Source of the DNA: an uncultured Candidatus Saccharibacteria bacterium
Lineage (GTDB): Bacteria; Patescibacteriota; Minisyncoccia; Portnoybacterales; UBA2143
Assembly: GCA_964403725.1 (NCBI GenBank)
Contig: CAYOHI010000001.1
Span: 46,091-97,979 of the forward strand
Direction of reading: 5' to 3'
DNA: 51,889 bases
Position 1 is the first letter of the stretch; the number at the start of each line of letters is the position of its first letter. Under the pieces are notes generated by a model, which saw only the letters and a program-made list of their open reading frames with translations, did no database searches and was not told the origin of the DNA. The position numbers and the translations under genes were made by a program. Below are positions 26,037-45,798 of the stretch, piece after piece.

Positions 26037-27053
26037 ATGATTTCAGTCACCGAAAAAAACTTAAAAGATATTTTTAAATATGGAGGCCAGTATTTAATTT
26101 TAAAAGAGTCTCTTAAAAAGAAGATCAAATGCTCCGTTTTAATCCAGAAAAAGGGCAATAGGAAGAATATATATATCAAGCTTAAGAAAGATGGTAAATC
26201 CCGTTGGTTGAGCCACCAAAAGGGATTTTTTAATTCAAAGCTCAGTTGTGAATTGGCTTTGTCGAAATATTTAACTTACAAAGCTCTGGAATCGATAAAA
26301 TCACCCATCCCCCAATTTATTAAGATTAACAAGACCGATAAAATTGGTGAAATTAAGATTCCAGAACCCTGGGTTATCAAGCCGATCAACCAGACTAAGG
26401 GACGAGACGTAGTAATCAAGATTAAGACCAAAGAACGGCTTAAAAAAGTGGCCAGAAGATTATTCAAGAAATACAAATATCTGATGATTGAAGAATTCAT
26501 CCAAGGAAAAGATTACAGACTCTTAATTTTAAACAACAAGTTAATTGGCGCTGTCAGAAGAATCCCAGCCAAAATAAAGGGAGACGGAATCCATAATATC
26601 AAGCAATTAATTGAAATTAGCAACAAAAAAGAACGAAGAATTAAAGCCAAACAACTGGCTCCATTTATTAAAAAAATTAAAATTGATTCAGAAGTCAAAA
26701 GATGTCTTGCCCAGAAGAAATTAAGATTGACTTCTGTTCCAAAAAAGAATCAGATTGTCCAAGTCAGAAAAAATGCCAATTTCAGCACTGGCGGCGAGGC
26801 TGAAGACGTAACCAAATCAGTCCATCCTGATAATATTAAAATAGCCCGCAAAGCAGTAAAAGCTCTGGGGCTAAAGATCGGAGGGGTTGATATTATTACC
26901 AAGGATATCTCAAAATCTATTCTTAAAAGCAAAGGCAAGGTTATTGAAATTAACGGAATTCCTTCGCTTTGGCTCCATCATTTCCCGAATCAAGGCAAAG
27001 GCCAGAATACAACTAGTAAAGTTATTGATTATTTATTTAAAAATCACCTTTGA
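26037..27053 (+). CDS. ATP-grasp ligase resembling the cyanophycin-synthetase G-domain / RimK group
   Basis: 338 aa. GKDYRLLILNNKLIGAVRRIPAKIKGDGIHNIKQLIE...ANFSTGGEAEDVTKSVHPDNIKIARKAVKALGLKIGGVDIITKDI closely follows the CphA ATP-grasp consensus as I remember it. It starts on the base after the previous stop. Confidence 0.7.
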   Translation: MISVTEKNLKDIFKYGGQYLILKESLKKKIKCSVLIQKKGNRKNIYIKLKKDGKSRWLSHQKGFFNSKLSCELALSKYLTYKALESIKSPIPQFIKINKTDKIGEIKIPEPWVIKPINQTKGRDVVIKIKTKERLKKVARRLFKKYKYLMIEEFIQGKDYRLLILNNKLIGAVRRIPAKIKGDGIHNIKQLIEISNKKERRIKAKQLAPFIKKIKIDSEVKRCLAQKKLRLTSVPKKNQIVQVRKNANFSTGGEAEDVTKSVHPDNIKIARKAVKALGLKIGGVDIITKDISKSILKSKGKVIEINGIPSLWLHHFPNQGKGQNTTSKVIDYLFKNHL

Positions 27054-27850
27054 TAAACACTGAAATGAGGAGCGGTAATCTGAGATATTTCCAGACAAGT
27101 TATCCCTTCTTTTCTGTACCGATTACAGCTGCCAGAACCCCCGTTATGCTCATAAACAACATCTTTTCGAGGGAAACCAGACGCTACGAGACTATCAAAG
27201 ACATCTTTTACATCACTAGGATCATCGCTGCGATCCGTTAAATTAACATCAACACATGTCCCGTTATAATGACAGGGAGACTGATGATTAACTGTTGGAG
27301 GCCAACCTTCAGTCACCCACCAATCAGAACAAGTAGGATCACTGTTGCACCTCGCATAAGCATCATTCAACAAGGTTGCCATAACAGGCGTAATCTTATT
27401 ACTACTACCAGGCTTAACCGGTACTGTCATAGCCACGCAAGTCGGACAGTCAACGCTGTGCTGCATTGGCGGCATCATAGTCACACTTGGCAGGTTAGGA
27501 GATTGATTCTGCAGCAATACGGGATTGATGGTATTAAGGATTAAGTAAGTAGCTAGTCCCAGTACTAATCCAGACAGGGCTCCGGTAATGTAGTCTTTAG
27601 CCTTATCCTTGGAAGTGACTGTGTCTGAGAGCATATAGAGGAATCCTCCATAGACCAGCATGCCCAGTGCTGCTATGCCTACTGCACCCAGTCCTATGAA
27701 GTATATATAGCTCAGATACTGAGGTAATGTGAATGTAGCCATCGAAGTCGCGCCTGGGAGGGTTATCTCTACTTGGTAGCCGGCCAAAGCAAAATTAACA
27801 ACAAAAAAGAGGTTTAATAATATAATTAGTATTAAAACTAATTTTTTCAT
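27044..27850 (-). CDS. T4SS-type pilin module (signal peptide + two TM helices) fused to a Cys-rich C-terminal domain with a LAS/M15 zinc-peptidase-like motif
   Basis: 268 aa. Residues 23-127 are near-identical to residues 25-129 of 41408..41965. The C-terminus carries VTEGWPPTVNHQSPCHYNGTCVDV (H-x7-D spacing as in SxHxxGxAxD) and a distal APHFSV. ATGA overlap with the tyrS stop. Confidence 0.6.
   Translation of the reverse strand: MKKLVLILIILLNLFFVVNFALAGYQVEITLPGATSMATFTLPQYLSYIYFIGLGAVGIAALGMLVYGGFLYMLSDTVTSKDKAKDYITGALSGLVLGLATYLILNTINPVLLQNQSPNLPSVTMMPPMQHSVDCPTCVAMTVPVKPGSSNKITPVMATLLNDAYARCNSDPTCSDWWVTEGWPPTVNHQSPCHYNGTCVDVNLTDRSDDPSDVKDVFDSLVASGFPRKDVVYEHNGGSGSCNRYRKEGITCLEISQITAPHFSVYQR
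27471..27784 (-). repeat. copy 1 of a 314-bp direct repeat (pilin module)
   Basis: Hand alignment to 41580-41893 gives about 20 mismatches in 314 positions. The stretch 27606-27724 is identical to 41715-41833 (119 nt). Confidence 0.9.
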
Positions 27851-29049
27851 AAATTAACCTTAATAAATTTCCTTTTGCCTACTTGGATAATCATTCCCTT
27901 TTTCACTTCAATCTCTTTTTGCCAGTCTTTAACTTTCTGATCATCAATCTTGACTCCACCTTGCTCAACCAATCTTTTAGCTTCTCCTTTACTAGGAGTC
28001 ATCTTTGTTTCTACTAATAAATCTAAAATTTGATGTTTCTTTTTATCTGTCTTGAAAACAGGGATTTCTGTTGGCTTGTCTTTGTCTTTAAATACTTTTT
28101 CAAATTCTTTCTCTGCTTTTTCTGCATCCTTCTTGCTGTAATAAAGAGCAACCAATTCTCTAGCTAACCTCGCTTTGGCATCTCTTGGATTCAATTTATC
28201 AGCCTTCATATCGCTTTCCATTTTTTTAATTTCATCCATATCCACGCTTGTACACAATTCTAATCCTGGAATAATCAAGCCGTCAGACCAAGCCATGACT
28301 TGGCCGAACATTTCATTAGGACTTTCATCTAGGTTAATGATATTGCCTTCTGTCTTACCCATCTTCTTGCCTGATGGATCAGCTAGTAATTTAGTGGTTA
28401 GGACGAATTTTTCTTTGTTTTTAATAGCCTTCATCAAGTCTCTTCCTCTGAGCATATTGAAAGTCTGGTCATTGCCTCCGATTTCCAAATCAACATCCAT
28501 GCCGACACTGTCATAACCTTGGGCTAAAGGATAGAGAAATTCATGCAGATAGATCGGCTCATTATTCTTAATCCTTTCTTGGAACATATCCCTGACCATC
28601 ATCTGCTGAACTGTGAAATTAGAGGCGATTTCAATCAAATCAATAAAGCTCAGCTTATCGCTCCATTCACTGTTGTTCATAACCTTGGCCGGATTCTTTC
28701 CTGAAAAATCCAATATCTTACCAGCTTGTTCCTGATAGAATTCAGAATTCTCAAGAACTTCCTTTCTGGTCATCTTCTTGCGGGCTGCCGTCTTGTCGGT
28801 CGGATCGCCAATCATGCCCGTAAAATCGCCGATCAAGAAAATTACTTCATGGCCTAATCTCTGGAATTGGGCTAATTTCATAATTTGGATAGCATTGCCG
28901 ATATGCAAAGACTTAGCGCTAGGATCAAAACCACAATACAACCTAATTTTCTTATCAGACCTCAATACTTTTTCAAAAGTTTCCCTATCAGGGTAAATAT
29001 TCTCTACCCCACGGGTCAAAACCTCCTTAATTTGTTGTTCTTTATTCAT
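27847..29049 (-). CDS. tyrS: tyrosyl-tRNA synthetase
   Basis: 400 aa from ATG 29049 (MNKEQQIKEVLTRGVENIYPD). HIGH motif SLHIGNA, KMSKS-like KKMGKT and a C-terminal S4 domain (SKGEAKRLVEQGGVKIDDQKV). The track's 88-codon N-terminal extension looks non-coding. Confidence 0.9.
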   Translation of the reverse strand: MNKEQQIKEVLTRGVENIYPDRETFEKVLRSDKKIRLYCGFDPSAKSLHIGNAIQIMKLAQFQRLGHEVIFLIGDFTGMIGDPTDKTAARKKMTRKEVLENSEFYQEQAGKILDFSGKNPAKVMNNSEWSDKLSFIDLIEIASNFTVQQMMVRDMFQERIKNNEPIYLHEFLYPLAQGYDSVGMDVDLEIGGNDQTFNMLRGRDLMKAIKNKEKFVLTTKLLADPSGKKMGKTEGNIINLDESPNEMFGQVMAWSDGLIIPGLELCTSVDMDEIKKMESDMKADKLNPRDAKARLARELVALYYSKKDAEKAEKEFEKVFKDKDKPTEIPVFKTDKKKHQILDLLVETKMTPSKGEAKRLVEQGGVKIDDQKVKDWQKEIEVKKGMIIQVGKRKFIKVNL

Positions 29050-29116
29050 AATATTGCCCTTATCTACTGATATATTAAATATATCACCCTTGATAAAAAT
29101 AAGCAATTCTGTCAAA

Positions 29117-31648
29117 ATGTATAATATGTTAATAAGAAGTGGAAAAGTAGTAAGAACATTTATCAAAATCTTAATATTCCTAATACTAATCGGTTTCCTT
29201 TTTGGAATCGGCGTTTTAGCATATTTTGCCAAAGATCTACCAGATCCGACTAAGATCGACGAACGGCAAGTCGTAGAATCGACCAAAATATATGACAGGA
29301 CTGGCCAAGTCATCCTTTATGATATCCATGGCGAAGAAAAAAGAACCATTATTCCTTTTGAAGATATCCATCAGCACGTCAAAGACGCCACTATTGTCGC
29401 TGAAGACGATAATTTCTACCACCATATCGGCATAGATTGGCGGGGTATTATTAGATCTTTTATCGCCAACTTTAGGAATAGTAGAATTTCACAAGGCGCT
29501 TCGACTATCACCCAGCAATTCATTAAAAATGCATACTTAGGTGGCCCTCAGGCAGAAAGGACGTATACCCGTAAAATTAAGGAAGTGATTCTATCAGTCA
29601 TTATGGAAAGAAAGTATTCCAAGGATGAAATCCTAGGATTCTACTTAAATCAAGTCCCATACGGCTCAAACGCCTATGGCATTGAAGCAGCAGCTCAGAC
29701 TTTCTTCAATAAATCAGCTAAAGAATTGAATTTGGCTGAAACCAGCCTTTTAGCTGCTCTGCCTAACGGCCCAAGCTATTACTCCCCTTACGGATCCCAC
29801 CCTGAAGAATTAAAGGAAAGACAAGAATATATTCTGGACAGGATGGTTAAATTCGGATACATCAATAAAGAAGAAGCAGAAAGCGCCAAGCAGGAAGAAT
29901 TAAAATATGCTTCTAAGGGAGATTTGAAAGCGCATCATTTTGTCACCATGATTCAGGAATATTTAGAAGAAGAATACAGCCGAAACTACAGCGATATCAA
30001 TATGGCTGGACTGAAAGTTTATACTACCCTAGATTGGGATCTACAGCAATTAGCTGAAGAGATCATTACAGAAAAAGCGGAAACAAATGAAAAAACCTAC
30101 AGAGCCAGCAATGCGGCTCTAGTCAGCATCGATCCAAAAACAGGACAAGTATTAACTCTGGTCGGATCCAAGAATTACAGTGAGGACCAGTTCAACGTAG
30201 CTACCAGCCCGAACAGGCAACCTGGATCTTCTTTCAAGCCTTTTGCTTACGCTATGGCATTTGAAAAAGGATATAGTCCGGCCAGTATTCTTTTTGATCT
30301 AGAAACGAGCTTTGGCGAATTCGGCCCGGTCGGCGAAGAGAAAGAATACAAGCCGAACAACTATGACTTGAAATTCAGAGGACCGATCAGCATGAGAGAC
30401 TCCTTAGCCCAGTCAGTCAACGTTACTTCAGTTAAAGCCCTTTACTTAGCTGGCGTTAACGATACCATCAATCTAGCCCAGGATATGGGCATCACTACCT
30501 TAAAAGACAGAGGCAGATACAGCCTATCTCTGGTTCTTGGCGGCGGAGAAGTTAAATTAATCGATGAAACGGCAGCTTACGGAGTTTTCGCCACAGAAGG
30601 AACCAGACATCCAACTAAATTAATCTTAAGAATTGAAGATTCCAAGGGAAATATTTTAGAAGAATACGAAGATGATCCAAAGAAAGTTTTAAGCGAACAG
30701 ACAGCCAGGCAGATCAGCGATGTCTTATCGGATGAAGCTGCCAGAATCCCTGTCTTTGGACCTAAGTCAGACCTATACCTATCTGGCCGGCCAGCTGCTG
30801 CCAAAACCGGTACAACTCAAGATTACGCCGATGGTTGGACAATCGGATACACCCCTAGTCTGGTCACTGGCGTCTGGGCTGGGAATAATGATTTTACCGA
30901 TAAGATGAAGCCTGGGGCAGCCGGCCTTTATGTCGCCTCCCCTATTTGGAACGAATTCATGAGTAGAGCTTATGAATTAAAAATTGAAGATAATGATAAT
31001 ACTATTACTGATGAAGAAAATATTATTGAAAACGAATTTTTCTTACCTGAGAAAACAGAACAATTCACTTCTCCGGAACCAGTAGCTAGTAGCACTACGC
31101 CAATGATTAATGGAGAATTGGCATATATGAATAAGGTGAAAATTGACAGGATTTCTGGGAAATTAGCTACTGAACTGACTCCGCCTGATCTGATTACAGA
31201 AAAAACTTACCAGGAAGTCCACTCAATCCTTTACTATATCGACCAAGATGACGAACAATTCAATAATTGGGAACCAGCTGTTCAGACTTGGGTTTCAAGC
31301 CAGTCATGCTCTTCTGGGAATATTTGTTACAATCAAAATCCACCAACTGAATATGACGACATCCATACAAAAGAAAACCAGCCTGATGTAGAAATCACTT
31401 CCCCAATGGAAGATACGACTATTAACGGCTCAAGCTTAACCATTCAAGCTGATGCATTCGCTAAATTAGGAATTAAGCAAGTTGATTTCTTCTTAAACGA
31501 TCAATTAATTGGAACTGATAGAACTCTGCCTTATTCAGTAACTTTTAATCCTATTCCCTATTTAACAGGTGATGAACAAATAATTAAAGTAAGAGCCTAT
31601 GATATGGTTTTAAATAGGCAAGAAGATGAGATTAATGTAGATTATTAA
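29117..31648 (+). CDS. class A penicillin-binding protein (glycosyltransferase + transpeptidase) with a C-terminal Ig-like domain
   Basis: GT51 motifs EDDNFYHHIGID, GASTITQQ and RKIKE. Transpeptidase motifs SSFKP, SVN and KTGT. The last ~90 aa are beta-rich and Ig-like. Start taken at ATG 29117 (MYNMLIRSGK, before the TM helix). Confidence 0.9.
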   Translation: MYNMLIRSGKVVRTFIKILIFLILIGFLFGIGVLAYFAKDLPDPTKIDERQVVESTKIYDRTGQVILYDIHGEEKRTIIPFEDIHQHVKDATIVAEDDNFYHHIGIDWRGIIRSFIANFRNSRISQGASTITQQFIKNAYLGGPQAERTYTRKIKEVILSVIMERKYSKDEILGFYLNQVPYGSNAYGIEAAAQTFFNKSAKELNLAETSLLAALPNGPSYYSPYGSHPEELKERQEYILDRMVKFGYINKEEAESAKQEELKYASKGDLKAHHFVTMIQEYLEEEYSRNYSDINMAGLKVYTTLDWDLQQLAEEIITEKAETNEKTYRASNAALVSIDPKTGQVLTLVGSKNYSEDQFNVATSPNRQPGSSFKPFAYAMAFEKGYSPASILFDLETSFGEFGPVGEEKEYKPNNYDLKFRGPISMRDSLAQSVNVTSVKALYLAGVNDTINLAQDMGITTLKDRGRYSLSLVLGGGEVKLIDETAAYGVFATEGTRHPTKLILRIEDSKGNILEEYEDDPKKVLSEQTARQISDVLSDEAARIPVFGPKSDLYLSGRPAAAKTGTTQDYADGWTIGYTPSLVTGVWAGNNDFTDKMKPGAAGLYVASPIWNEFMSRAYELKIEDNDNTITDEENIIENEFFLPEKTEQFTSPEPVASSTTPMINGELAYMNKVKIDRISGKLATELTPPDLITEKTYQEVHSILYYIDQDDEQFNNWEPAVQTWVSSQSCSSGNICYNQNPPTEYDDIHTKENQPDVEITSPMEDTTINGSSLTIQADAFAKLGIKQVDFFLNDQLIGTDRTLPYSVTFNPIPYLTGDEQIIKVRAYDMVLNRQEDEINVDY

Positions 31649-39140: not shown

Positions 39141-40266
39141 TTTAATTTATTTGATAGTTTTCTCTCTGCCTCTATATCTGGTTAGTTTCAAGGTTTTTTG
39201 GGTGCCTTTTAATATTTTGGAAATATTGATCTGTGTTTTATTTATCTTTTGGGCTTTTAATTTTAAGGATAGATCTTTGTTCAATTCAAAGATTTTCTTG
39301 CCAATATTATTGATTCTTGTTGGTATAACTGTTTCTGTTTGGGTTTCAAATGATTTAGAGGTTAGTGCTGGCATCTGGAAGGGTTGGTTTATTGTTCCGA
39401 TGCTGTTTTTTATAGTACTTATTGACCGGGTTAAGAAAAGAGATCAGGTTAACAGGATTATTGTTAGCTTAACTTTATCGGGTTTAGTTGTGGCCTTAAT
39501 ATCTCTTTGGTATTGGTTGAGTGGCAATTTGACCTATGATGGAAGATTAAGCGGATTTTATCTTTCAGCTAATTTCTTAGCTATGTATTTGTCCCCTATC
39601 TTAATATTATCCCTGTATTTATTTTCTGTCTTTAAGGAGAGAAAATACAGGATAGGTCTGTTGTTTGTCTATTTTCTATTATCTTTTGTAATCTATTTGA
39701 CTTATTCTTATGGCGCTTGGCTGGGTCTTCTGATAGCTTTTCTTTTTATCTTATTAAAACAAAAAAACAAGAAAATCCTATTGATATTTTCTTTGTTGGT
39801 TATTCTGGTTTCTGTTATCCAGATTCCTAGTTACAAGTTTCAGGGTTTTTTGGATTTGTCTTATCCTTCTCTGCAGTCGCGCTTGGTTATTTGGCAAAGC
39901 GCTTTTGAAATATTGAAAGATAATCTTGTCTTTGGTATTGGACTGGGCATGTTTCAGGAATATTACTTGGCATATCAGGATATGTTTTTGCCTTATCCTG
40001 AATGGGCCGTACCCCAGCCTCATAATATTTTCTTGGCTTTCTGGCTGCAGGCTGGATTATTGGGCTTTGTCGGCTTTGTCTGGCTGTTAGTATATTTCTT
40101 TAAAAAAACAAACCCCAGTCATGTGCTAGGGTCTGTTCTAATAGGTCTTATGGTCTATATCTTAATTCACGGTCTGATTGATACCACTTATTTCAAAAAT
40201 GACTTATCAGTAATATTCTGGCTTGTTATAGCTCTAGGCTATAAAGCAGATTATCTGGCTGATTGA
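39118..40266 (+). CDS. second O-antigen ligase/polymerase-like (Wzy_C domain) membrane protein
   Basis: 382 aa, polytopic. SRLVIWQSAFEI...FGIGLGMF...PHNIFLAFWLQAGLLG. It overlaps the preceding gene by 23 nt. Confidence 0.75.
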   Translation: MLQKIIDNLIYLIVFSLPLYLVSFKVFWVPFNILEILICVLFIFWAFNFKDRSLFNSKIFLPILLILVGITVSVWVSNDLEVSAGIWKGWFIVPMLFFIVLIDRVKKRDQVNRIIVSLTLSGLVVALISLWYWLSGNLTYDGRLSGFYLSANFLAMYLSPILILSLYLFSVFKERKYRIGLLFVYFLLSFVIYLTYSYGAWLGLLIAFLFILLKQKNKKILLIFSLLVILVSVIQIPSYKFQGFLDLSYPSLQSRLVIWQSAFEILKDNLVFGIGLGMFQEYYLAYQDMFLPYPEWAVPQPHNIFLAFWLQAGLLGFVGFVWLLVYFFKKTNPSHVLGSVLIGLMVYILIHGLIDTTYFKNDLSVIFWLVIALGYKADYLAD

Positions 40267-41380
40267 CGAAAATCAGGTAATCTTCCAAAGGAGGTAAGAT
40301 TAATTCCTCTACATTATATATCTTTGTCTCTCCGAGTCCCTGGACTTCAAATATCTTAGTCATTTCTTCTGTTTCTAGGTTGATTCTCCAGAATTCATCA
40401 TTAAATGAAACTTTTTCTTTGTAATAGTCATCTGGCATGACAGCATCGTTGGAGATATTCTTCGGAATAGCGCAGAAAATCGTCCGGTTATCCTGGCTCC
40501 AGATGCATTTCTCTACTAAAGTGACAACATTTAACTCGCTAACAGTCTGGCCATCTAGGTCAGCTATTTTTAATTTCAGATTCTTGCCGTCACTGTCCGT
40601 TTCTGAATAAAGTATCTTATCCCCCATAGGTGACCATAAGGCTGATAAACCATAGGTTTCGTTGATAATTTTTTGGAAATCTCCAGTTGTTGGATTAATG
40701 ACATAGACTACGCTTTCAACAAGGCCGCTAGGCTTGTTTCTGATTGATACCTTATTGGCTACTGGCCACTCTACGATTAAATCCTTCATCCTTGTTTGGA
40801 AGATGGATTCCCAATTCGATCCATCTGGGTTAGCAATGCTGATATTGTTATCCTCAGTAACGGAATTATAGTATTGGTAAGCTATTTTGCTCTGATTTGG
40901 CGACCAGGTTACCCAGCGGACCTCTCCGAGTAAAGGAGTTGATATTTTCGTGTTGTAGTCATAAAGATATTTCTTAATCAATCCATTTTCATCAAAAAGA
41001 GCAATAACTTTATCCTTATCAGGAGACCAGATAGCTTTGATTAGATCACTTAGAACAATAGATGATGTTCTGGTCAGCTCAGCGCCATCAAGGTCCGATT
41101 CGAATACATTACCATTGCTTTTCGAGTAGTACCTGACTTTTTTACCATCTGTAACAGGACTCAAGACTGCCTCTTGGGAAATTTGTTTGAGTTTTCCTTC
41201 AATAGGAGTGTTATTTATTGGATCCGTGCTTGGATCAGAGATCGGTATCTGGCTGGGGTCGTCTGTTGTCGCAGTCGGGTCTGTTTCTTCGTCAGAAGAA
41301 AAGTAATTGTACGCGACCAGACCGGTAATGACCATAACCAAGGCTATTATTAGAATGATGAATATTTGTTTAAGTGACAT
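40226..41380 (-). CDS. membrane-anchored TolB-like beta-propeller (PD40 repeats)
   Basis: 384 aa with an N-terminal TM helix and repeated W-S-P motifs (IWSPDKDKV, VTWSPNQSKIAYQ, ALWSPMGDKILYS, CIWSQDNRTIF). Last gene of the T4SS-like operon. Confidence 0.65.
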   Translation of the reverse strand: MSLKQIFIILIIALVMVITGLVAYNYFSSDEETDPTATTDDPSQIPISDPSTDPINNTPIEGKLKQISQEAVLSPVTDGKKVRYYSKSNGNVFESDLDGAELTRTSSIVLSDLIKAIWSPDKDKVIALFDENGLIKKYLYDYNTKISTPLLGEVRWVTWSPNQSKIAYQYYNSVTEDNNISIANPDGSNWESIFQTRMKDLIVEWPVANKVSIRNKPSGLVESVVYVINPTTGDFQKIINETYGLSALWSPMGDKILYSETDSDGKNLKLKIADLDGQTVSELNVVTLVEKCIWSQDNRTIFCAIPKNISNDAVMPDDYYKEKVSFNDEFWRINLETEEMTKIFEVQGLGETKIYNVEELILPPLEDYLIFVNQPDNLLYSLEL

Positions 41381-41407: not shown

Positions 41408-41965
41408 TTATCTAGGTATACAGCAGCAAACGTTTGTGTTTGGCGGAGTGCAAAGTCCCTTTAGAGCAGCACAATCCGTAGCACAGTTTCCTGTAGTTCC
41501 ACCTTTTTTATGGAGATCAGTACATGCTGATGCTGATATAGGAGCGCAGATTTGGGGTGAAGGCGGAGCGGGCGGAGATGGCATCATAGTCACACTTGGC
41601 AGGTTAGGTGATTGATTCTGCAACAGTACAGGATTGATAGTATTAAGGATTAAGTAAGCTGCTAGTCCTAGTACTAATCCAGATAGAGCTCCGGTAATGT
41701 AGTCTTTAGCCTTGTCCTTGGAAGTGACTGTGTCTGAGAGCATATAGAGGAATCCTCCATAGACCAGCATGCCCAGTGCTGCTATGCCTACTGCACCCAG
41801 TCCTATGAAGTATATATAGCTCAGATACTGAGGCAATGTGAATGTAGTTGTTGGAGTTGTACCTGGGAGGGTTATCTCTACTTGGTAGCCGGCTGCCTGG
41901 ACATTAAAACAAATGAATAGCGAGAATGCTGCAATGATTAATATTTTTTTAAATTTTAAATTCAT
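41408..41965 (-). CDS. T4SS-type (VirB2/TrbC-topology) pilin with a Cys-rich C-terminal extension
   Basis: 185 aa with signal peptide ...NVQAAG and two hydrophobic helices separated by SDTVTSKDKAKDY. Then a PSPPAPPSPQ linker and a tail with 9 Cys ending VCCCIPR. Confidence 0.65.
   Translation of the reverse strand: MNLKFKKILIIAAFSLFICFNVQAAGYQVEITLPGTTPTTTFTLPQYLSYIYFIGLGAVGIAALGMLVYGGFLYMLSDTVTSKDKAKDYITGALSGLVLGLAAYLILNTINPVLLQNQSPNLPSVTMMPSPPAPPSPQICAPISASACTDLHKKGGTTGNCATDCAALKGLCTPPNTNVCCCIPR
41580..41893 (-). repeat. copy 2 of the 314-bp direct repeat (pilin module)
   Basis: See 27471..27784. The offset between copies is exactly 14,109 bp, in the same orientation. Confidence 0.9.
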
Positions 41966-41968
41966 ATT

Positions 41969-42661
41969 TTATGGAACTAAGAATACTTCAGCAGAAGCAC
42001 TATTCCTTTGAATCCGGTTATTCCTATTCTCTACCCAGACTTCTAGGGTCTGCCTGATGGTTTCATTAACCTTGCCTATCTTTATGGAGAGATCGTTGAA
42101 ATCAACGACATCTACTTGGGGAGCTATTTTCTGTCCAAATTGCCACTGGTATTCCAATTCGCTCAGATTAAAGATATTGAAGAAGAACGGTTGGGCTGTG
42201 AATTCTACTTCCTGGTCACCAGAGAGGTTATATTGCTCCAGGAATCCCAAGGCTGGACTTTTCAGCTTTATGACAATTTCAGGTAAACGGGCTTTTAGGA
42301 AGAGGTTTTTCGATGTTGCTATCTTGTAGTTGTTTCTATCTATGACTTCAACTCTAATTATATGGTCCTTGGTAATGCTTTCACTCATCTGGAATTTGAA
42401 ATTCTGTTTGCCAAGTCCTGATTCGTCTTGAATATGGTTATTCAAGAACCAGTTAAAAGTCAATTCTTCTGGGTTTAATCCCTTGGAATTAAATTGGGCA
42501 GCTACTTCTACATTGCTTCCCCTGCTAGGCAGAGCTGCTCCTCTGTAATCAAGGGGAACATAGGTGTCTGTTATCCAAGTCAAAGTCACTCCAGCAGCTT
42601 GAGCTGAAAAAGCGAAAGATAAACAAAGAATAGTTGGTAAGATGTAATGTTTTAATTTCAT
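41969..42661 (-). CDS. secreted hypothetical protein (230 aa)
   Basis: Signal peptide ILCLSFAFSAQAAG followed by beta-rich sequence. 4-nt overlap with the upstream gene. No family recognised. Confidence 0.55.
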   Translation of the reverse strand: MKLKHYILPTILCLSFAFSAQAAGVTLTWITDTYVPLDYRGAALPSRGSNVEVAAQFNSKGLNPEELTFNWFLNNHIQDESGLGKQNFKFQMSESITKDHIIRVEVIDRNNYKIATSKNLFLKARLPEIVIKLKSPALGFLEQYNLSGDQEVEFTAQPFFFNIFNLSELEYQWQFGQKIAPQVDVVDFNDLSIKIGKVNETIRQTLEVWVENRNNRIQRNSASAEVFLVP

Positions 42662-43072: not shown

Positions 43073-44875
43073 TTAATAGGCAGTGCCTTCTCCTTTCATT
43101 TCTTCTTCCGCTAAATCTTTTTTAGCTTGTTCAATTTCCATCAATTGGGCTGGATCAGAGGTGATTACCTGGTCTTCAGTATATGAAGCAACGATTTTAA
43201 TGGCTACATGCTTTGATCCAGCAAAGAATATCCCCTCTCCCACAGCGCTCTCCAAAAGCATGTATTTTTCCTGGTCTGTTAGGTTGAATGTTTCCTTGAT
43301 TACATCAATAGCAGCCGGAGATTGTTTTAAAAGTAGTTGAATAGATGAGTTAGTTACAATCGGTTTGCCATATTTGGATTTCATGAAATCTGCTACGTCC
43401 TGGGTTATGGTAGTCAGTCCGAGATAGTATTTTCGGCATCTTTTAGCGATGCCGTACAAGAATGAGGCAGCATCGTCATTCTGCATCATGACCCAGGCTT
43501 CATCAACAACCATCATCCTTTTCTTTCTCTTAGAACGGATAATATTCCAGATATATCTTAGGATAATATACATGGCCAGTGGCCTCAATTCTTTTTCCAT
43601 ATCTCTGATGCTGAAAACGACTAGCTTCTTCCCTAATTCAACATTAGTTGGCTGGTTGAAGAAATTGGCATAGCTGCCAGAAATGAATTTTTCCAGTCTA
43701 GTTACCAAAGATTCTGTTCCAGTCATGCCCTTGAGGACTGTGTACAGGTCCTGCATCAAAGGAGGATTGACTTTGCTGAAATCAGATTCAGGGGTAATGT
43801 CTCTGGCGGCATAGGTTTCAGTCAGGGCCTTGTCGACGATAGCGTCTTCTTCAGGGGTCAGTCCGCCCAGCATTATCCTTAGAAGCCCGACTAGGTTAAT
43901 GACGTTGTTTCTCAATACGTCAGCTGGCTTTTCATCCGGCCCAGGAACCGGCAAGTCAAAAGGATTCAAGTGATGGGGAGAAGAAATTGATATATCAATA
44001 AAGGTGCCCCCTACTGTTTCAGCCAGGTATTTATATTCTTTTTCTGGGTCGATAATTAAAACTTCTGTATCCTGCATCAAGGAACGAAGAACTTCCAGTT
44101 TAATAGCATAAGATTTGCCGCTGCCTGATTTGGCGAAGACACAGGCATTCGCATTTTCCATGCCGAATCTGTCAAAAAGAATCAAGGAATTATTATGCCT
44201 GTTGATTCCATAAAGGATTCCCTTGTTCTCGCTCAAATCAGATGAAATGAAAGGGAAAGCAGCTGATAATGGTGCCGTATTGAAATTATTGTGGACATAG
44301 ATCTTATCTGATCCCAAAGGAAGAGTAGAAACGAAGCCTTGTTCCTGCTGGAAGACGGCTGGCTTGGCATAGATCATCTGGTTTTCCAAAAGAGCCCTGA
44401 TGCTATTCTCTATCTCATCCAATTGTTTGGGATTATCTGCGAAAAAAGTGACGTAAAGACCGAGCTTGAAGAGCTTCTCAGTCCCTTGCTGGAGGGTAGT
44501 TCTCAATTCTTCGATGCTTTGCAGGGCGGTTTCCAGCTTGGGATCGCGCACTTTTCCTTTTTCTGCCTGCATAGACATCTGTGATTGGACTTGGGCTGTC
44601 TTTTTAGTCAGTGTCTTCAAGGCGGCGTTAGTCTCGGCTGGGTGAATGAACATGGATATATTCGTTTCTTGGTCCAAGGTGATGACTGAGGATAGCCAGC
44701 CGGTATCCAAATTCTGGGGGTACGAGAAGACAAATATGGTCCGGCCATACTTCTCGCCGATCTGGATATAGTTTGAGTTGATTTGTAATCCGGCTGGAGC
44801 GATCAAATCAACCAAATCGGTTTCTTGGTGTGTTCCTTGAGGCGCTATTTGCTTTTTCTTGAATAAATTAAGCAT
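43073..44875 (-). CDS. VirB4/TrsE-type T4SS ATPase (ATPase body)
   Basis: 600 aa with Walker A FAKSGSGKSYAIK and Walker B RMMVVDEAW. The N-terminal segment LIAPAGLQINSNYIQIGEKYGRTIFVFSYPQNLDTGWLS is typical of Gram-positive VirB4 homologues. Confidence 0.85.
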   Translation of the reverse strand: MLNLFKKKQIAPQGTHQETDLVDLIAPAGLQINSNYIQIGEKYGRTIFVFSYPQNLDTGWLSSVITLDQETNISMFIHPAETNAALKTLTKKTAQVQSQMSMQAEKGKVRDPKLETALQSIEELRTTLQQGTEKLFKLGLYVTFFADNPKQLDEIENSIRALLENQMIYAKPAVFQQEQGFVSTLPLGSDKIYVHNNFNTAPLSAAFPFISSDLSENKGILYGINRHNNSLILFDRFGMENANACVFAKSGSGKSYAIKLEVLRSLMQDTEVLIIDPEKEYKYLAETVGGTFIDISISSPHHLNPFDLPVPGPDEKPADVLRNNVINLVGLLRIMLGGLTPEEDAIVDKALTETYAARDITPESDFSKVNPPLMQDLYTVLKGMTGTESLVTRLEKFISGSYANFFNQPTNVELGKKLVVFSIRDMEKELRPLAMYIILRYIWNIIRSKRKKRMMVVDEAWVMMQNDDAASFLYGIAKRCRKYYLGLTTITQDVADFMKSKYGKPIVTNSSIQLLLKQSPAAIDVIKETFNLTDQEKYMLLESAVGEGIFFAGSKHVAIKIVASYTEDQVITSDPAQLMEIEQAKKDLAEEEMKGEGTAY

Positions 44876-45512
44876 TTTCTTGTTTTTCTATTTTTGGATC
44901 TTCTTTGGCGCTTGGGTTATAGAATTTATAGAAGAGTTCTATCAATTCTTCCGTGTTCAGAGGGACTGTCTTGATGCCCAATCCCCTGAGGCCGGTAGAG
45001 ATATATTCCACTCTTTGCCAAAGATTATTCTTTAATTCTTGGAATGATTCCTCTTTGGTAGCTTCTTTCTCTTTTTTAGTGAAGATATTACTGAAGAATC
45101 CTCCTTTCTTTATAGCTGACGGACTGTACGGGACAATTATGTAAAAGGATTTAGTCATGACGTTGGTCATCTGGGTCAATCCTTTGACAAAATTGATATA
45201 TTCGTTGGTTTGAATTCTTAAAAGCTCGTTTTCTTGCTGGGTTTGTCTATGTTCTAGGGTCTGGATATATGGGGTGATGTCAAATTTGCGTGAAGAAGTC
45301 ATTATTTGAAGGGAAAAATCAAGTGAATTTAAGAAATCCTGATAGCGGTAAATGATAGCATCTCTTTCCTCAGTTGATTTTAGGGCAAAGTTTATGCTGG
45401 TAGCCATCAAAACAGAACGCAGTCCTTTGTTCTTAAGGACTACAACATCATCTTTAATTTCCTTTACTTCCAAATGCTTTTGGATTGAAGCTGCGTTTAA
45501 TTTGTTAGCCAT
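44868..45512 (-). CDS. VirB4 N-terminal-domain-like protein (separate ORF)
   Basis: 214 aa. VVVLKNKGLRSVLMATSINFALKSTEERDAIIYRYQDFLNSLDFSLQI follows the pattern of the first ~200 aa of long VirB4 proteins (from memory). It overlaps the ATPase ORF by 8 nt in another frame. Confidence 0.5.
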   Translation of the reverse strand: MANKLNAASIQKHLEVKEIKDDVVVLKNKGLRSVLMATSINFALKSTEERDAIIYRYQDFLNSLDFSLQIMTSSRKFDITPYIQTLEHRQTQQENELLRIQTNEYINFVKGLTQMTNVMTKSFYIIVPYSPSAIKKGGFFSNIFTKKEKEATKEESFQELKNNLWQRVEYISTGLRGLGIKTVPLNTEELIELFYKFYNPSAKEDPKIEKQENA

Positions 45513-45513
45513 A

Positions 45514-45798
45514 CTATTTTTTCCCTCTTTTCCATAGGTATAGTTTTGGTTTAGTCATATATTTTATCAGTGAACCCAAGAGATATACGAATGGTCTTCC
45601 ATTAACTTTGTAAAAAGCTAATCCTAAGACTAGGATAGCGATAGGAACAGCGATAATGATGAAAAGAGTTAATTTGAGATAGAACCAAAGCATAGCCAGG
45701 ACACCAACTCCGCCTAATAGATACAGGAATTGCTTGAGAGTCAGGGGTCCGACTATCTTGTCTTCTATATCGATAAATTGAGGAACTCTAAATCTCAT
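45514..45798 (-). CDS. PrgI-family (VirB3-like) small membrane protein
   Basis: 94 aa. MRFRVPQFIDIEDKIVGPLTLKQFLYLLGG followed by two TM helices, the hallmark of the PrgI family found next to VirB4 in Gram-positive T4SS. Confidence 0.7.
   Translation of the reverse strand: MRFRVPQFIDIEDKIVGPLTLKQFLYLLGGVGVLAMLWFYLKLTLFIIIAVPIAILVLGLAFYKVNGRPFVYLLGSLIKYMTKPKLYLWKRGKK

What the first reader, a model, noticed from the sequence alone, without database searches (positions are those of the whole stretch)
27047..27469. The C-terminal domain of the outlying pilin paralog resembles a LAS/M15 zinc peptidase (cell-wall hydrolase)
After the shared pilin module, the 268-aa protein continues with a 140-aa domain containing 11 Cys. 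The domain carries WWVTEGWPPTVNHQSPCHYNGTCVDVNL and, near the end, ITAPHFSV.

The H-x7-D spacing (HYNGTCVD) matches the SxHxxGxAxD zinc-ligand motif of VanX/VanY/M15 and YcbK-type peptidases. The preceding VTEGW resembles their (I/V)TSGYR segment, and the distal His could be the third ligand.

Gram-positive-type T4SS need a peptidoglycan hydrolase, and none is recognisable in the operon. Displaying a hydrolase on a pilin scaffold would be unusual. It could act on the organism's own wall or on a host's wall.
Basis: inference. Interest (0 to 1): 0.6.

Follow-up and report, generated by a model that had tools for sequence, protein, structure and literature searches.

The report
Secretion pilin carrying a Hedgehog-like zinc peptidase
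An ultra-small (Patescibacteria) bacterium fuses a secretion-system pilin to a Hedgehog-like zinc peptidase domain that probably cuts cell-wall peptides, and related bacteria put several kinds of wall-cutting enzyme on the same pilins, which I could not find described.

Summary
Residues 128-268 hold 8 Cys, not 11, and the motif is H-x6-D, not H-x7-D.

A profile of 39 homologous domains matches only Hedgehog N-domains in the PDB (E 2.5e-4). The AlphaFold2 model (pLDDT 93.8) matches Hedgehog N-domains first (Foldseek E 3e-4, probability 1.0), then MepA and LdcB/VanY.

Residues aligned to Shh H135, H141, D148 and E177 are H189, H194, D201 and E234. H262 is assigned to H183 by motif only. In the 150 best relatives all are invariant except H194 (143/150). 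No Pfam model covers the domain, yet 1,125 clusters at 50% identity match it. Of the best 150, 122 also match T4SS_pilin.

In about 17 of 39 related loci the fusion sits right after virB4. Here that slot holds a short pilin with an 85%-identical module. Neighbouring pilins elsewhere carry SLT, Peptidase_M15_4 or 3D heads, so wall-hydrolase heads on these pilins are recurrent.

Most likely it is a pilin-tethered peptidoglycan peptidase of the type IV secretion system. Whether it cuts the host wall or its own is open. Metal-site geometry could not be measured.

Earlier reports of this scan on this same window flagged the Hedgehog-like head.

The parts
27782..27850 (-). Signal peptide, residues 1-23 (MKKLVLILIILLNLFFVVNFALA). 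It differs from the signal peptide of the operon pilin.
   Evidence: Hydropathy; helix 2-21 in the full-length model; alignment with 41408-41965.
27470..27781 (-). VirB2-like pilin module, residues 24-127. It holds helix 42-74, a basic loop (SDTVTSKDKAKDY), helix 78-114, and the Pro-rich linker 115-127.
   Evidence: PF18895 T4SS_pilin at E 6e-4, 20.3 bits, below the 26.6-bit cut-off. AF2 gives a helical hairpin with pLDDT above 90 and a linker 117-127 with pLDDT below 50. 85% aa identity to the operon pilin.
27047..27469 (-). C-terminal LAS (Hedgehog/DD-peptidase fold) domain, residues 128-268. This is the finding itself.
   Evidence: AF2 pLDDT 93.8, pTM 0.88. Foldseek top 38 hits are Hedgehog N-domains, then MepA, LdcB and VanY. 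Profile against PDB E 2.5e-4.
27269..27271 (-). H194, putative first zinc ligand (aligns with Shh H141).
   Evidence: Alignments. H in 143 of 150 relatives, Q in 6, S in 1.
27248..27250 (-). D201, putative second zinc ligand (aligns with Shh D148). Spacing from H194 is H-x6-D.
   Evidence: Invariant in 150/150; alignments.
27065..27067 (-). H262, putative third zinc ligand on the last beta-strand (HFSV compared with Shh H183-C-S-V).
   Evidence: Invariant in 150/150. Strand 262-266 in the model. The equivalence to H183 is inferred from the motif, not from an alignment or coordinates.
27149..27151 (-). E234, putative general base (aligns with Shh E177).
   Evidence: Invariant in 150/150; aligned.
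27284..27286 (-). H189, putative transition-state residue (aligns with Shh H135).
   Evidence: Invariant in 150/150; aligned.
27308..27310 (-). E181 of the invariant TE-x-x-PPT motif. It aligns with Shh E127, a Ca2+ ligand. The two other Ca2+ ligand positions are P184 and T186 here.
   Evidence: Invariant in 150/150. Ungapped alignment VTEGWPPTVNH / VTEGWDEDGHH.
27847..29313 (-). Upstream tyrS. Its TGA stop overlaps the ATG of the fusion gene (ATGA). No promoter-like site lies between them on the minus strand.
41408..41965 (-). The T4SS-operon pilin (185 aa). It shares the same mature pilin module but ends in a 57-aa Cys-rich tail instead of the peptidase. It holds the slot that the fusion holds in other genomes.
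43073..45798 (-). Core of the T4SS operon: PrgI/VirB3-like (45514-45798) and a split VirB4 (44868-45512 and 43073-44875).
   Evidence: Pfam hits; synteny with 16-17 related loci.

Best explanation
The gene encodes a Sec-exported VirB2-like pilin of the Patescibacteria type IV secretion system (T4SS). Its C-terminus, outside the membrane, carries a zinc peptidase domain of the LAS (Hedgehog/DD-peptidase) fold on a flexible Pro-rich linker.

Proposed mechanism: H194, D201 and H262 hold the zinc. E234 activates the water and H189 stabilises the transition state. The substrate is a peptide bond in a peptidoglycan stem or cross-link.

Because its polymerisation module is almost identical to that of the operon pilin, I propose that it co-assembles with that pilin as a minor subunit. 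The peptidase would then sit on the pilus, where it can open the cell wall at the contact site with the host. It may also open the producer's own wall while the pilus grows out.

Shown: the fold, conservation of the catalytic residues, the predicted topology, the link to the T4SS, and that other wall hydrolases occupy the same position on sister pilins.

Inferred: zinc binding, peptidoglycan as substrate, incorporation into a pilus, and which wall is cut.
For: Fold and active site:
- AF2 pLDDT 93.8. The top 38 Foldseek hits are Hedgehog N-domains (E 3e-4, rmsd about 2.6 A over 100 columns), followed by MepA, LdcB and VanY.
- Profile against PDB E 2.5e-4. hhalign against an Shh fragment gives probability 82%.
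- E181, H189, D201, E234 and H262 are invariant, and H194 is present in 143, of the 150 best clusters.

Pilin module:
- 122 of 150 relatives match PF18895 and 7 match TrbC/VirB2.
- The full-length model shows a signal helix, a helical hairpin and a disordered linker.
- All 8 Cys lie in the outer domain, which fits an extracytoplasmic location.

Link to the T4SS:
- In about 17 of 39 loci the fusion lies right after virB4.
- In many of those loci it is the only pilin-like ORF within 8 kb on either side.

Wall-cutting role:
- Tandem sister pilins carry SLT, Peptidase_M15_4 and 3D heads.
- Pilin fusions with SLT, M15_4, VanY and M15_3 are numerous in the large protein collection.

Co-assembly:
- The mature module is 85% identical in protein to the operon pilin, and identity ends at the linker.

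Literature:
- In S. epibionticum, the essential gene next to virB4 (SEML1_0007) has a C-terminal Hedgehog/DD-peptidase domain (PMC10633639 Table S2).
Against: - No biochemical data exist for any member.
- Model coordinates are not exposed, so convergence of H194, D201 and H262 was not measured. The H262 = Shh H183 equivalence rests on motif matching only.
- About 4% of relatives have Gln in place of H194, so some members may not bind zinc.
- Vertebrate Hedgehog shows that this fold can act as a ligand.
- The domain was not found in 30 close relatives, and was found in only 5 of 300 other sampled genomes of the phylum. The T4SS therefore works without it.
- The focal gene lies 14 kb from the operon, behind tyrS.
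- The pilin module scores below Pfam's cut-off and found no solved pilin by sequence or fold.
- Where the fusion is the only pilin, a filament in which every subunit carries a 15-kDa head is untested.
- Nothing here distinguishes the host wall from the organism's own wall.
Confidence: 0.5

Rival explanations
1. It is a membrane-anchored substitute for VirB1. The pilin hairpin serves only as a membrane anchor and docking device for the T4SS. The peptidase cuts the producer's own peptidoglycan locally so that the channel or pilus can cross it. It is never displayed on a filament.
For: - Monoderm T4SSs use membrane-anchored multi-domain hydrolases such as PrgK and TraG. Most Patescibacteria that have VirB2 lack VirB1 (PMC12102498).
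- No hydrolase is recognisable by Pfam in this operon.
- In many loci the fusion is the only pilin-like gene near virB4.
- The window encodes an 864-aa protein (29054-31648) that I read as a class A penicillin-binding protein from sequence motifs alone, so the organism probably has a wall of its own.
Against: - The domain was not found in same-genus, same-family or same-order genomes that keep the pilin, so it is not needed for assembly there.
- The genome has M23 and CHAP enzymes elsewhere.
- A plain anchor would not need to stay nearly identical to the operon pilin, although recent gene conversion could be neutral.
Confidence: 0.3
2. The pilin acts as an export carrier. The C-terminal domain is cleaved off at the linker during pilin maturation, as happens to the C-termini of TrbC/VirB2 pilins, and is released as a soluble peptidase.
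For: - The disordered Pro-rich linker 117-127 lies exactly at the module boundary.
- C-terminal processing of VirB2/TrbC pilins is established for the RP4 and Ti systems (my own knowledge, not tested here).
Against: No maturation peptidase or conserved cleavage motif was identified. Linkers vary widely in length and sequence across the family.
Confidence: 0.08
3. The head is a non-catalytic binding module: a Hedgehog-like ligand, or a domain that binds peptidoglycan or a host surface. It would tip or decorate the pilus as an adhesin.
For: - The closest solved structures are signalling ligands whose zinc site is used for binding (PMC6027127).
- 6 of 150 relatives have Gln at the first ligand position. 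Two relatives also lose both flanking Cys.
- The operon pilin carries a non-enzymatic Cys-rich head in the same position.
Against: - The putative general base E234 and H189 are invariant in 150/150, which binding alone would not require.
- The Ca2+/heparin-type Hedgehog surface is not conserved: D130 and D132 are replaced by P184 and T186.
- Sister pilins carry true catalytic domains.
Confidence: 0.1

Closest known systems
Hedgehog N-terminal signalling domain (Shh/Ihh/Dhh, e.g. 1VHH, 3D1M) and the Hh/DD-peptidase group of Roelink 2018 (PMC6027127)
   Same: - Best sequence and fold match.
- Shared VTEGW strand, H-x6-D, the YE strand carrying the general base, and a final H-x-S-V strand.
- Residues aligned to Shh H135, H141, D148 and E177 are present; H262 is matched to H183 by motif.
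   Different: - Only 24-26% identity in the structural alignment, whereas bacHh proteins exceed 50%.
- It does not hit Pfam HH_signal.
- The Ca2+ ligands D130 and D132 are replaced by the invariant P-P-T.
- The first His of HxH is Ala or Gly.
- There is an insertion of about 25 residues before the last strand and an extra N-terminal CxxC subdomain.
- It is fused to a pilin and has no Hint/autoprocessing domain.
Bacterial LAS peptidoglycan peptidases: MepA (M74, 1U10), LdcB/VanY (M15B, 4MPH, 4OX3, 5HNM), and phage M15 lysins
   Same: Same fold, at weaker scores (Foldseek E 0.02-0.1). Same zinc-ligand logic. These are the enzymes that show what this fold does in bacteria.
   Different: - No Pfam M15 model matches any of 39 members.
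- hhalign against pilin-borne VanY, M15_3 and M15_4 heads gives only 1-36% probability.
- The general base lies on the preceding strand as in Hedgehog, not in an E-x-x-H motif.
SEML1_0007 of Ca. Southlakia epibionticum ML1 (Wang et al. 2023, PMC10633639, Table S2)
   Same: - It is encoded directly downstream of virB4.
- Its Hedgehog/DD-peptidase domain (ECOD e6n7gC1) lies at the extreme C-terminus (residues 951-1105).
- It is essential for epibiotic growth.
- Long members of the present family have the layout signal peptide, extra domain, two TM helices, LAS head.
   Different: It is 1,113 aa against 268 aa. I could not obtain its sequence, so membership in this family and the presence of a pilin hairpin are unverified. 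The domain appears only in a supplementary table; I did not find it discussed in the main text.
T4SS peptidoglycan hydrolases: VirB1, PrgK (pCF10), TraG (pIP501)
   Same: A wall hydrolase dedicated to a T4SS. The monoderm versions are membrane-anchored and encoded in the operon (PMC12102498).
   Different: Those use SLT, CHAP or LytM domains and a simple TM anchor. Here a LAS peptidase sits on the VirB2-like pilin itself.
Other pilin-hydrolase fusions in Patescibacteria (PF18895 with SLT, Peptidase_M15_4, VanY, Peptidase_M15_3 or 3D)
   Same: Same architecture and the same loci, often in tandem with the Hedgehog-like fusions.
   Different: Their heads are recognised by Pfam and so receive automatic names such as 'M15 family metallopeptidase'. 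The focal head is not recognised by any Pfam model.

Membership tests
LAS metallopeptidase superfamily (Hedgehog/DD-peptidase fold) | Central antiparallel beta-sheet packed against helices, superposable on solved members | tested here: met
   AF2 pLDDT 93.8. Foldseek probability 1.0, TM about 0.5, rmsd 2.6 A over about 100 columns to Hedgehog N-domains. MepA, LdcB and VanY rank next.
LAS metallopeptidase superfamily (Hedgehog/DD-peptidase fold) | H-x(3-6)-D zinc-ligand motif | tested here: met
   H194-x6-D201. H in 143/150 and D in 150/150 relatives. Aligned to Shh H141 and D148.
LAS metallopeptidase superfamily (Hedgehog/DD-peptidase fold) | Third His ligand on the last strand (second His of HxH) | tested here: inconclusive
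   H262 is invariant and lies on the last strand. Every variant ending (APH, GEH, SFH, HLH, NIH) can place a His at this position. The equivalence to H183 is by motif only, and the first His of HxH is absent.
LAS metallopeptidase superfamily (Hedgehog/DD-peptidase fold) | Ligands converge on one metal; zinc is bound; peptidase activity | not testable with these tools
   Model coordinates are not returned and there is no biochemistry.
Hedgehog N-domain / bacHh (Pfam HH_signal PF01085) | Match to the family model | tested here: not met
   No hit at E up to 10 in the focal protein, in 39 members, or in the whole genome.
Hedgehog N-domain / bacHh (Pfam HH_signal PF01085) | Two-calcium site (Shh E127, D130, D132 and others) | tested here: not met
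   E181 is kept, but P184 and T186 replace D130 and D132 in an ungapped alignment. The P-P-T motif is nearly invariant.
Pfam Peptidase_M15 families (VanY PF02557, M15_3 PF08291, M15_4 PF13539) | Match to a family model | tested here: not met
   None of 39 members hits any of these models at E up to 10. hhalign against pilin-borne examples gives probability 1-36%.
VirB2-like T4SS pilin (PF18895 T4SS_pilin) | Match to the family model | tested here: inconclusive
   The focal protein scores 20.3 bits against a cut-off of 26.6, E 6e-4. 122 of 150 relatives match at E up to 1e-3 and 7 match TrbC.
VirB2-like T4SS pilin (PF18895 T4SS_pilin) | Signal peptide plus a hairpin of two hydrophobic helices with a short basic loop | tested here: met
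   Hydropathy. AF2 helices 42-74 and 78-114 with pLDDT above 90.
VirB2-like T4SS pilin (PF18895 T4SS_pilin) | Encoded with virB4, virB3 and virB6 | tested here: inconclusive
   The focal gene lies 14 kb away, behind tyrS. Its module is 85% identical to the operon pilin. Homologous fusions lie next to virB4 in about 17 of 39 loci.
VirB2-like T4SS pilin (PF18895 T4SS_pilin) | Similarity to solved pilins; polymerisation into a pilus | tested here: inconclusive
   No PDB hit by sequence. The hairpin gives only generic helical matches by fold. Polymerisation cannot be tested here.

The most novel reading that the evidence does not exclude
Patescibacteria T4SS pili are armed filaments. VirB2-like pilins carry interchangeable muralytic heads (Hedgehog-like LAS, M15, VanY, SLT, 3D), much as evolved VgrG/PAAR spikes carry effector domains in type VI secretion. 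The heads are displayed along or at the tip of the pilus and cut through the host's cell wall to set up the epibiotic connection. In this genome, gene conversion keeps one polymerisation module shared between a plain pilin and a peptidase-headed pilin so that the two co-assemble.
Probability: 0.3. Interest if true: 0.85.

Novelty: new variant of a known kind. Interest (0 to 1): 0.68.

Why it matters
What the essential T4SS and its unusual pilins do in Patescibacteria is an open question (PMC10633639, PMC12102498). The 2025 survey concluded that the VirB2 pilus appears not to need VirB1.

Wall hydrolases fused to the pilins themselves suggest an answer and a direct experiment: mutate the catalytic Glu in a cultivable Saccharibacterium.

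The focal head is also a large family that no Pfam model covers (1,125 clusters at 50% identity). Its closest solved relatives are animal Hedgehog proteins. This adds a bacterial branch to the debate about the peptidase ancestry of Hedgehog.

Tried and rejected
- Pfam and NCBIfam on the focal protein gave only a weak pilin hit.
- Pfam on 39 isolated heads gave nothing relevant.
- HH_signal against the whole genome gave no hit.
- Single-sequence phmmer against the PDB was not significant on its own (E 0.5).
- The BFVD fold search gave only weak phage M15 lysin hits, none at E 1e-3 or better.
- The pilin module against the PDB by sequence gave no hit. The full-length model against the PDB found no pilin.
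- hhalign could not extend the Shh alignment to the last strand.
- Literature searches for a described pilin-peptidase or pilin-hydrolase fusion found none. One query was rejected for its syntax.
- I considered a chance motif and a spurious ORF and rejected both. The family has 888 clusters at E 1e-10 or better, with invariant catalytic residues.
Full report
**1. What is at the coordinates**

The ORF 27044..27850 on the minus strand encodes 268 aa. Positions 27047-27469 encode residues 128-268. Both quoted peptides are present, at residues 177-204 and 258-265.

The domain has 8 Cys, not 11, and these are all the Cys in the protein. The motif HYNGTCVD is H-x6-D, not H-x7-D. H-x6-D is the spacing given for DD-peptidases and Hedgehog in PMC6027127.

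The ATG overlaps the stop of tyrS (ATGA). No promoter-like site separates the two genes on that strand.

**2. The N-terminal module**

Residues 1-23 form a Sec-type signal peptide. Residues 42-74 and 78-114 form two hydrophobic helices joined by a Lys-rich loop.

The full-length AlphaFold2 model has pLDDT 86.5. It shows a confident helical hairpin, a disordered linker at 117-127, and then a separate globular domain.

Pfam T4SS_pilin matches weakly: E 6e-4, 20.3 bits against a cut-off of 26.6.

The mature module is 85% identical in protein to the pilin of the T4SS operon (41408-41965). Long stretches are identical in DNA. The identity stops exactly at residue 127/128, where the two C-termini diverge. 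The operon pilin ends in a 57-aa Cys-rich tail.

The operon also holds PrgI/VirB3 and a split VirB4. The pilin module found no solved pilin by sequence or by fold.

**3. The C-terminal domain**

Alone, the sequence gives only non-significant PDB hits, but every one of them is a Hedgehog N-domain (E 0.5).

I collected 38 homologous loci from species genomes and one more from a Logan contig. Most are labelled as Patescibacteria. I cut out the heads and aligned them as A2.
- The A2 profile hits Sonic, Indian and Desert hedgehog N-domains at E 2.5e-4 to 1e-3 over about 85 residues. Nothing else in the PDB falls below E 0.5.
- hhalign against the Shh fragment printed gives probability 82%, E 1e-5, 37% identity over 57 columns.
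- AlphaFold2 on A2 gives pLDDT 93.8 and pTM 0.88.
- Foldseek against the PDB ranks 38 Hedgehog chains first (E 3e-4 to 6e-3, probability 1.0, rmsd about 2.6 A, 24-26% identity). Next come MepA, the LdcB/VanY-like carboxypeptidases and VanY.
- Against viral models only weak phage M15 lysin hits appear.

**4. Catalytic residues**

The alignments place H189 on Shh H135, H194 on H141, D201 on D148 and E234 on E177. The last strand, H262-F-S-V, matches Shh H183-C-S-V by motif only. An insertion of about 25 residues keeps the programs from aligning it.

A profile search of 1.84 billion representatives finds 1,125 clusters at E 1e-3 or better and 888 at E 1e-10 or better. The domain is almost always at the extreme C-terminus.

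In the best 150 clusters:
- E181, H189, D201, E234 and H262 are invariant.
- H194 is His in 143, Gln in 6 and Ser in 1.
- C193 and C199 are each present in 149.

Variant endings (SFHV, GGHLHL, NIHV) still place a His at the ligand position if the strand is aligned without right-justifying the C-termini.

The Hedgehog calcium site is not kept. In the ungapped alignment VTEGWPPTVNH / VTEGWDEDGHH, the positions of D130 and D132 hold P184 and T186.

I could not measure the metal-site geometry because coordinates are not exposed.

**5. Family status**

No Pfam model covers the head.
- HH_signal and the M15 families give no hit in any of 39 members at E up to 10.
- HH_signal finds nothing in the whole genome.
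- Profile-profile scores against other pilin-borne LAS heads are weak: M15_3/HH-like 26%, VanY 36%, M15_4 1%. An SLT control gives 0.3%.

This is a distinct LAS subfamily. By sequence it lies nearest to Hedgehog, but it is not a member of HH_signal or of the bacHh group, whose members exceed 50% identity to Shh.

**6. Architecture and context in relatives**

- 122 of 150 relatives match T4SS_pilin and 7 match TrbC/VirB2.
- Even long members of 500-1,044 aa have the layout signal peptide, extra domain, two TM helices, head.
- In about 17 of 39 loci the fusion lies directly after virB4 and a homologue of 41969-42661. It lies before a homologue of 40226-41380, then yidC and dnaA. In the window, the short pilin holds that slot.
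- In many of these loci the fusion is the only pilin-like ORF within 8 kb on either side.

The domain is patchy.
- The 675-kb genome, 99% complete, has one copy.
- It was not found in 30 genomes of the same genus, family or order.
- It was found in 5 of 300 other sampled genomes of the phylum.
- The five genomes checked (three same-genus, two same-family) have pilins with open frames of 150-200 aa and no such head. The one read in full, from G001, is 164 aa and ends in a Cys-rich tail.

**7. The strongest functional clue**

Pilin genes in tandem with the Hedgehog-like fusions carry other cell-wall hydrolase heads:
- T4SS_pilin + SLT (L033, E 1e-15).
- T4SS_pilin + Peptidase_M15_4 (L037, E 5e-19).
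- T4SS_pilin + 3D domain (L005, E 3e-6).

In the 5.8-billion-protein collection:
- About 76 of 120 listed relatives of the SLT fusion carry both domains.
- Relatives of the M15_4 fusion include about 49 clusters with pilin + M15_4, 16 with pilin + VanY and 5 with pilin + M15_3. One of the last group also hits HH_signal.

The C-terminus of these pilins is thus a recurrent mounting point for muralytic enzymes. This supports a peptidoglycan peptidase role for the Pfam-invisible head.

**8. Literature**

The 2025 survey of Patescibacteria T4SS lists VirB2 arrays and notes that most genomes with VirB2 lack VirB1. In the passages I searched it does not mention fusions (PMC12102498).

Wang et al. 2023 found the T4SS and its pilins essential. 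Their Table S2 assigns an ECOD Hedgehog/DD-peptidase domain to residues 951-1105 of SEML1_0007. This is the essential gene next to virB4. I did not find it discussed in the main text. I could not verify that it belongs to this family.

No paper I could find describes pilin-hydrolase fusions.

Two earlier follow-up reports of this scan on the same window had flagged the Hedgehog-like head and the shared module. I re-tested the shared module and the ATGA overlap myself.

**9. Mechanism and rivals**

Most likely (0.5): the protein is a minor pilin that co-assembles with the operon pilin. It carries a zinc peptidase that cuts peptidoglycan peptides at the T4SS or pilus site, possibly in the host wall.

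Rivals:
- A membrane-anchored substitute for VirB1 that acts on the organism's own wall (0.3).
- A head that is cleaved off and released (0.08).
- A non-catalytic adhesin or ligand (0.1).

The data do not separate the host wall from the organism's own wall. The genome has M23 and CHAP proteins elsewhere and no SLT.

**10. Verdict**

This is a new variant of a known kind. A Hedgehog-like LAS peptidase is mounted on a VirB2-like pilin, as part of a wider and apparently undescribed set of pilin-borne wall hydrolases. Interest 0.68.

Noticed in passing
L033:6196-7203; L037:5675-6640; L005:6937-7872: Pilin genes directly upstream of the Hedgehog-like fusions carry other wall-hydrolase heads: T4SS_pilin + SLT, T4SS_pilin + Peptidase_M15_4, and T4SS_pilin + 3D domain. 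Large-collection searches show dozens of clusters of each, plus fusions with VanY and M15_3.
   Followed up: yes
L034:7266-8216: This member looks circularly permuted. The helix-YEV-HFSVY half comes before the CxxC...TEAFPPT...CH..D half, and the protein ends at VDVGFF. All catalytic residues are present. An assembly artefact is not excluded.
   Followed up: no
L008:6804-7721, L010:5465-6403, L009:7962-8852, L015:7893-8780: The first zinc-ligand His is replaced by Gln. In L008 and L010 both flanking Cys are lost with it (CH..GTC becomes GQ..GTS), which suggests that C193 and C199 form a disulfide. L009 and L015 have CQ plus a 4-residue insert. These members may be inactive.
   Followed up: partly
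window 41408-41965 (-) and L041:1501-1995: The operon pilin and its same-genus counterpart end in different short Cys-rich tails after a Pro-rich linker. The pilin C-terminus seems to be a general site for swapping head modules.
   Followed up: partly
P0357 (357 aa): This T4SS pilin has a head that hits both Peptidase_M15_3 and Pfam HH_signal (GHHDGSQHYNGLAID ... HHVH). It is a second, more Hedgehog-like LAS head on a pilin, and the focal family's HMM does not match it.
   Followed up: partly
L003 (labelled Gammaproteobacteria) and L010 (labelled Nitrospira): L010 carries the Patescibacteria-type virB4 - pilin - yidC - dnaA arrangement. L003 carries tandem T4SS_pilin-family genes, including the fusion. 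Their taxonomic labels are probably binning errors.
   Followed up: no
window 43073-45512 (-): VirB4 is split into two ORFs, 44868-45512 and 43073-44875. The same split appears in 16-17 related loci, so it is a conserved arrangement and not a frameshift.
   Followed up: partly
window 27044-27053: The 3' end of the fusion gene overlaps the 3' end of the convergent ATP-grasp gene (26037-27053, +) by 10 bases.
   Followed up: no
L037:3983-5143 and L030:6211-7215: These two T4SS pilins have large C-terminal heads with no Pfam hit. Their motifs (ES...GLWQIN and YES...GAFQVL) look lysozyme- or transglycosylase-like. This is my reading of the motifs only.
   Followed up: no
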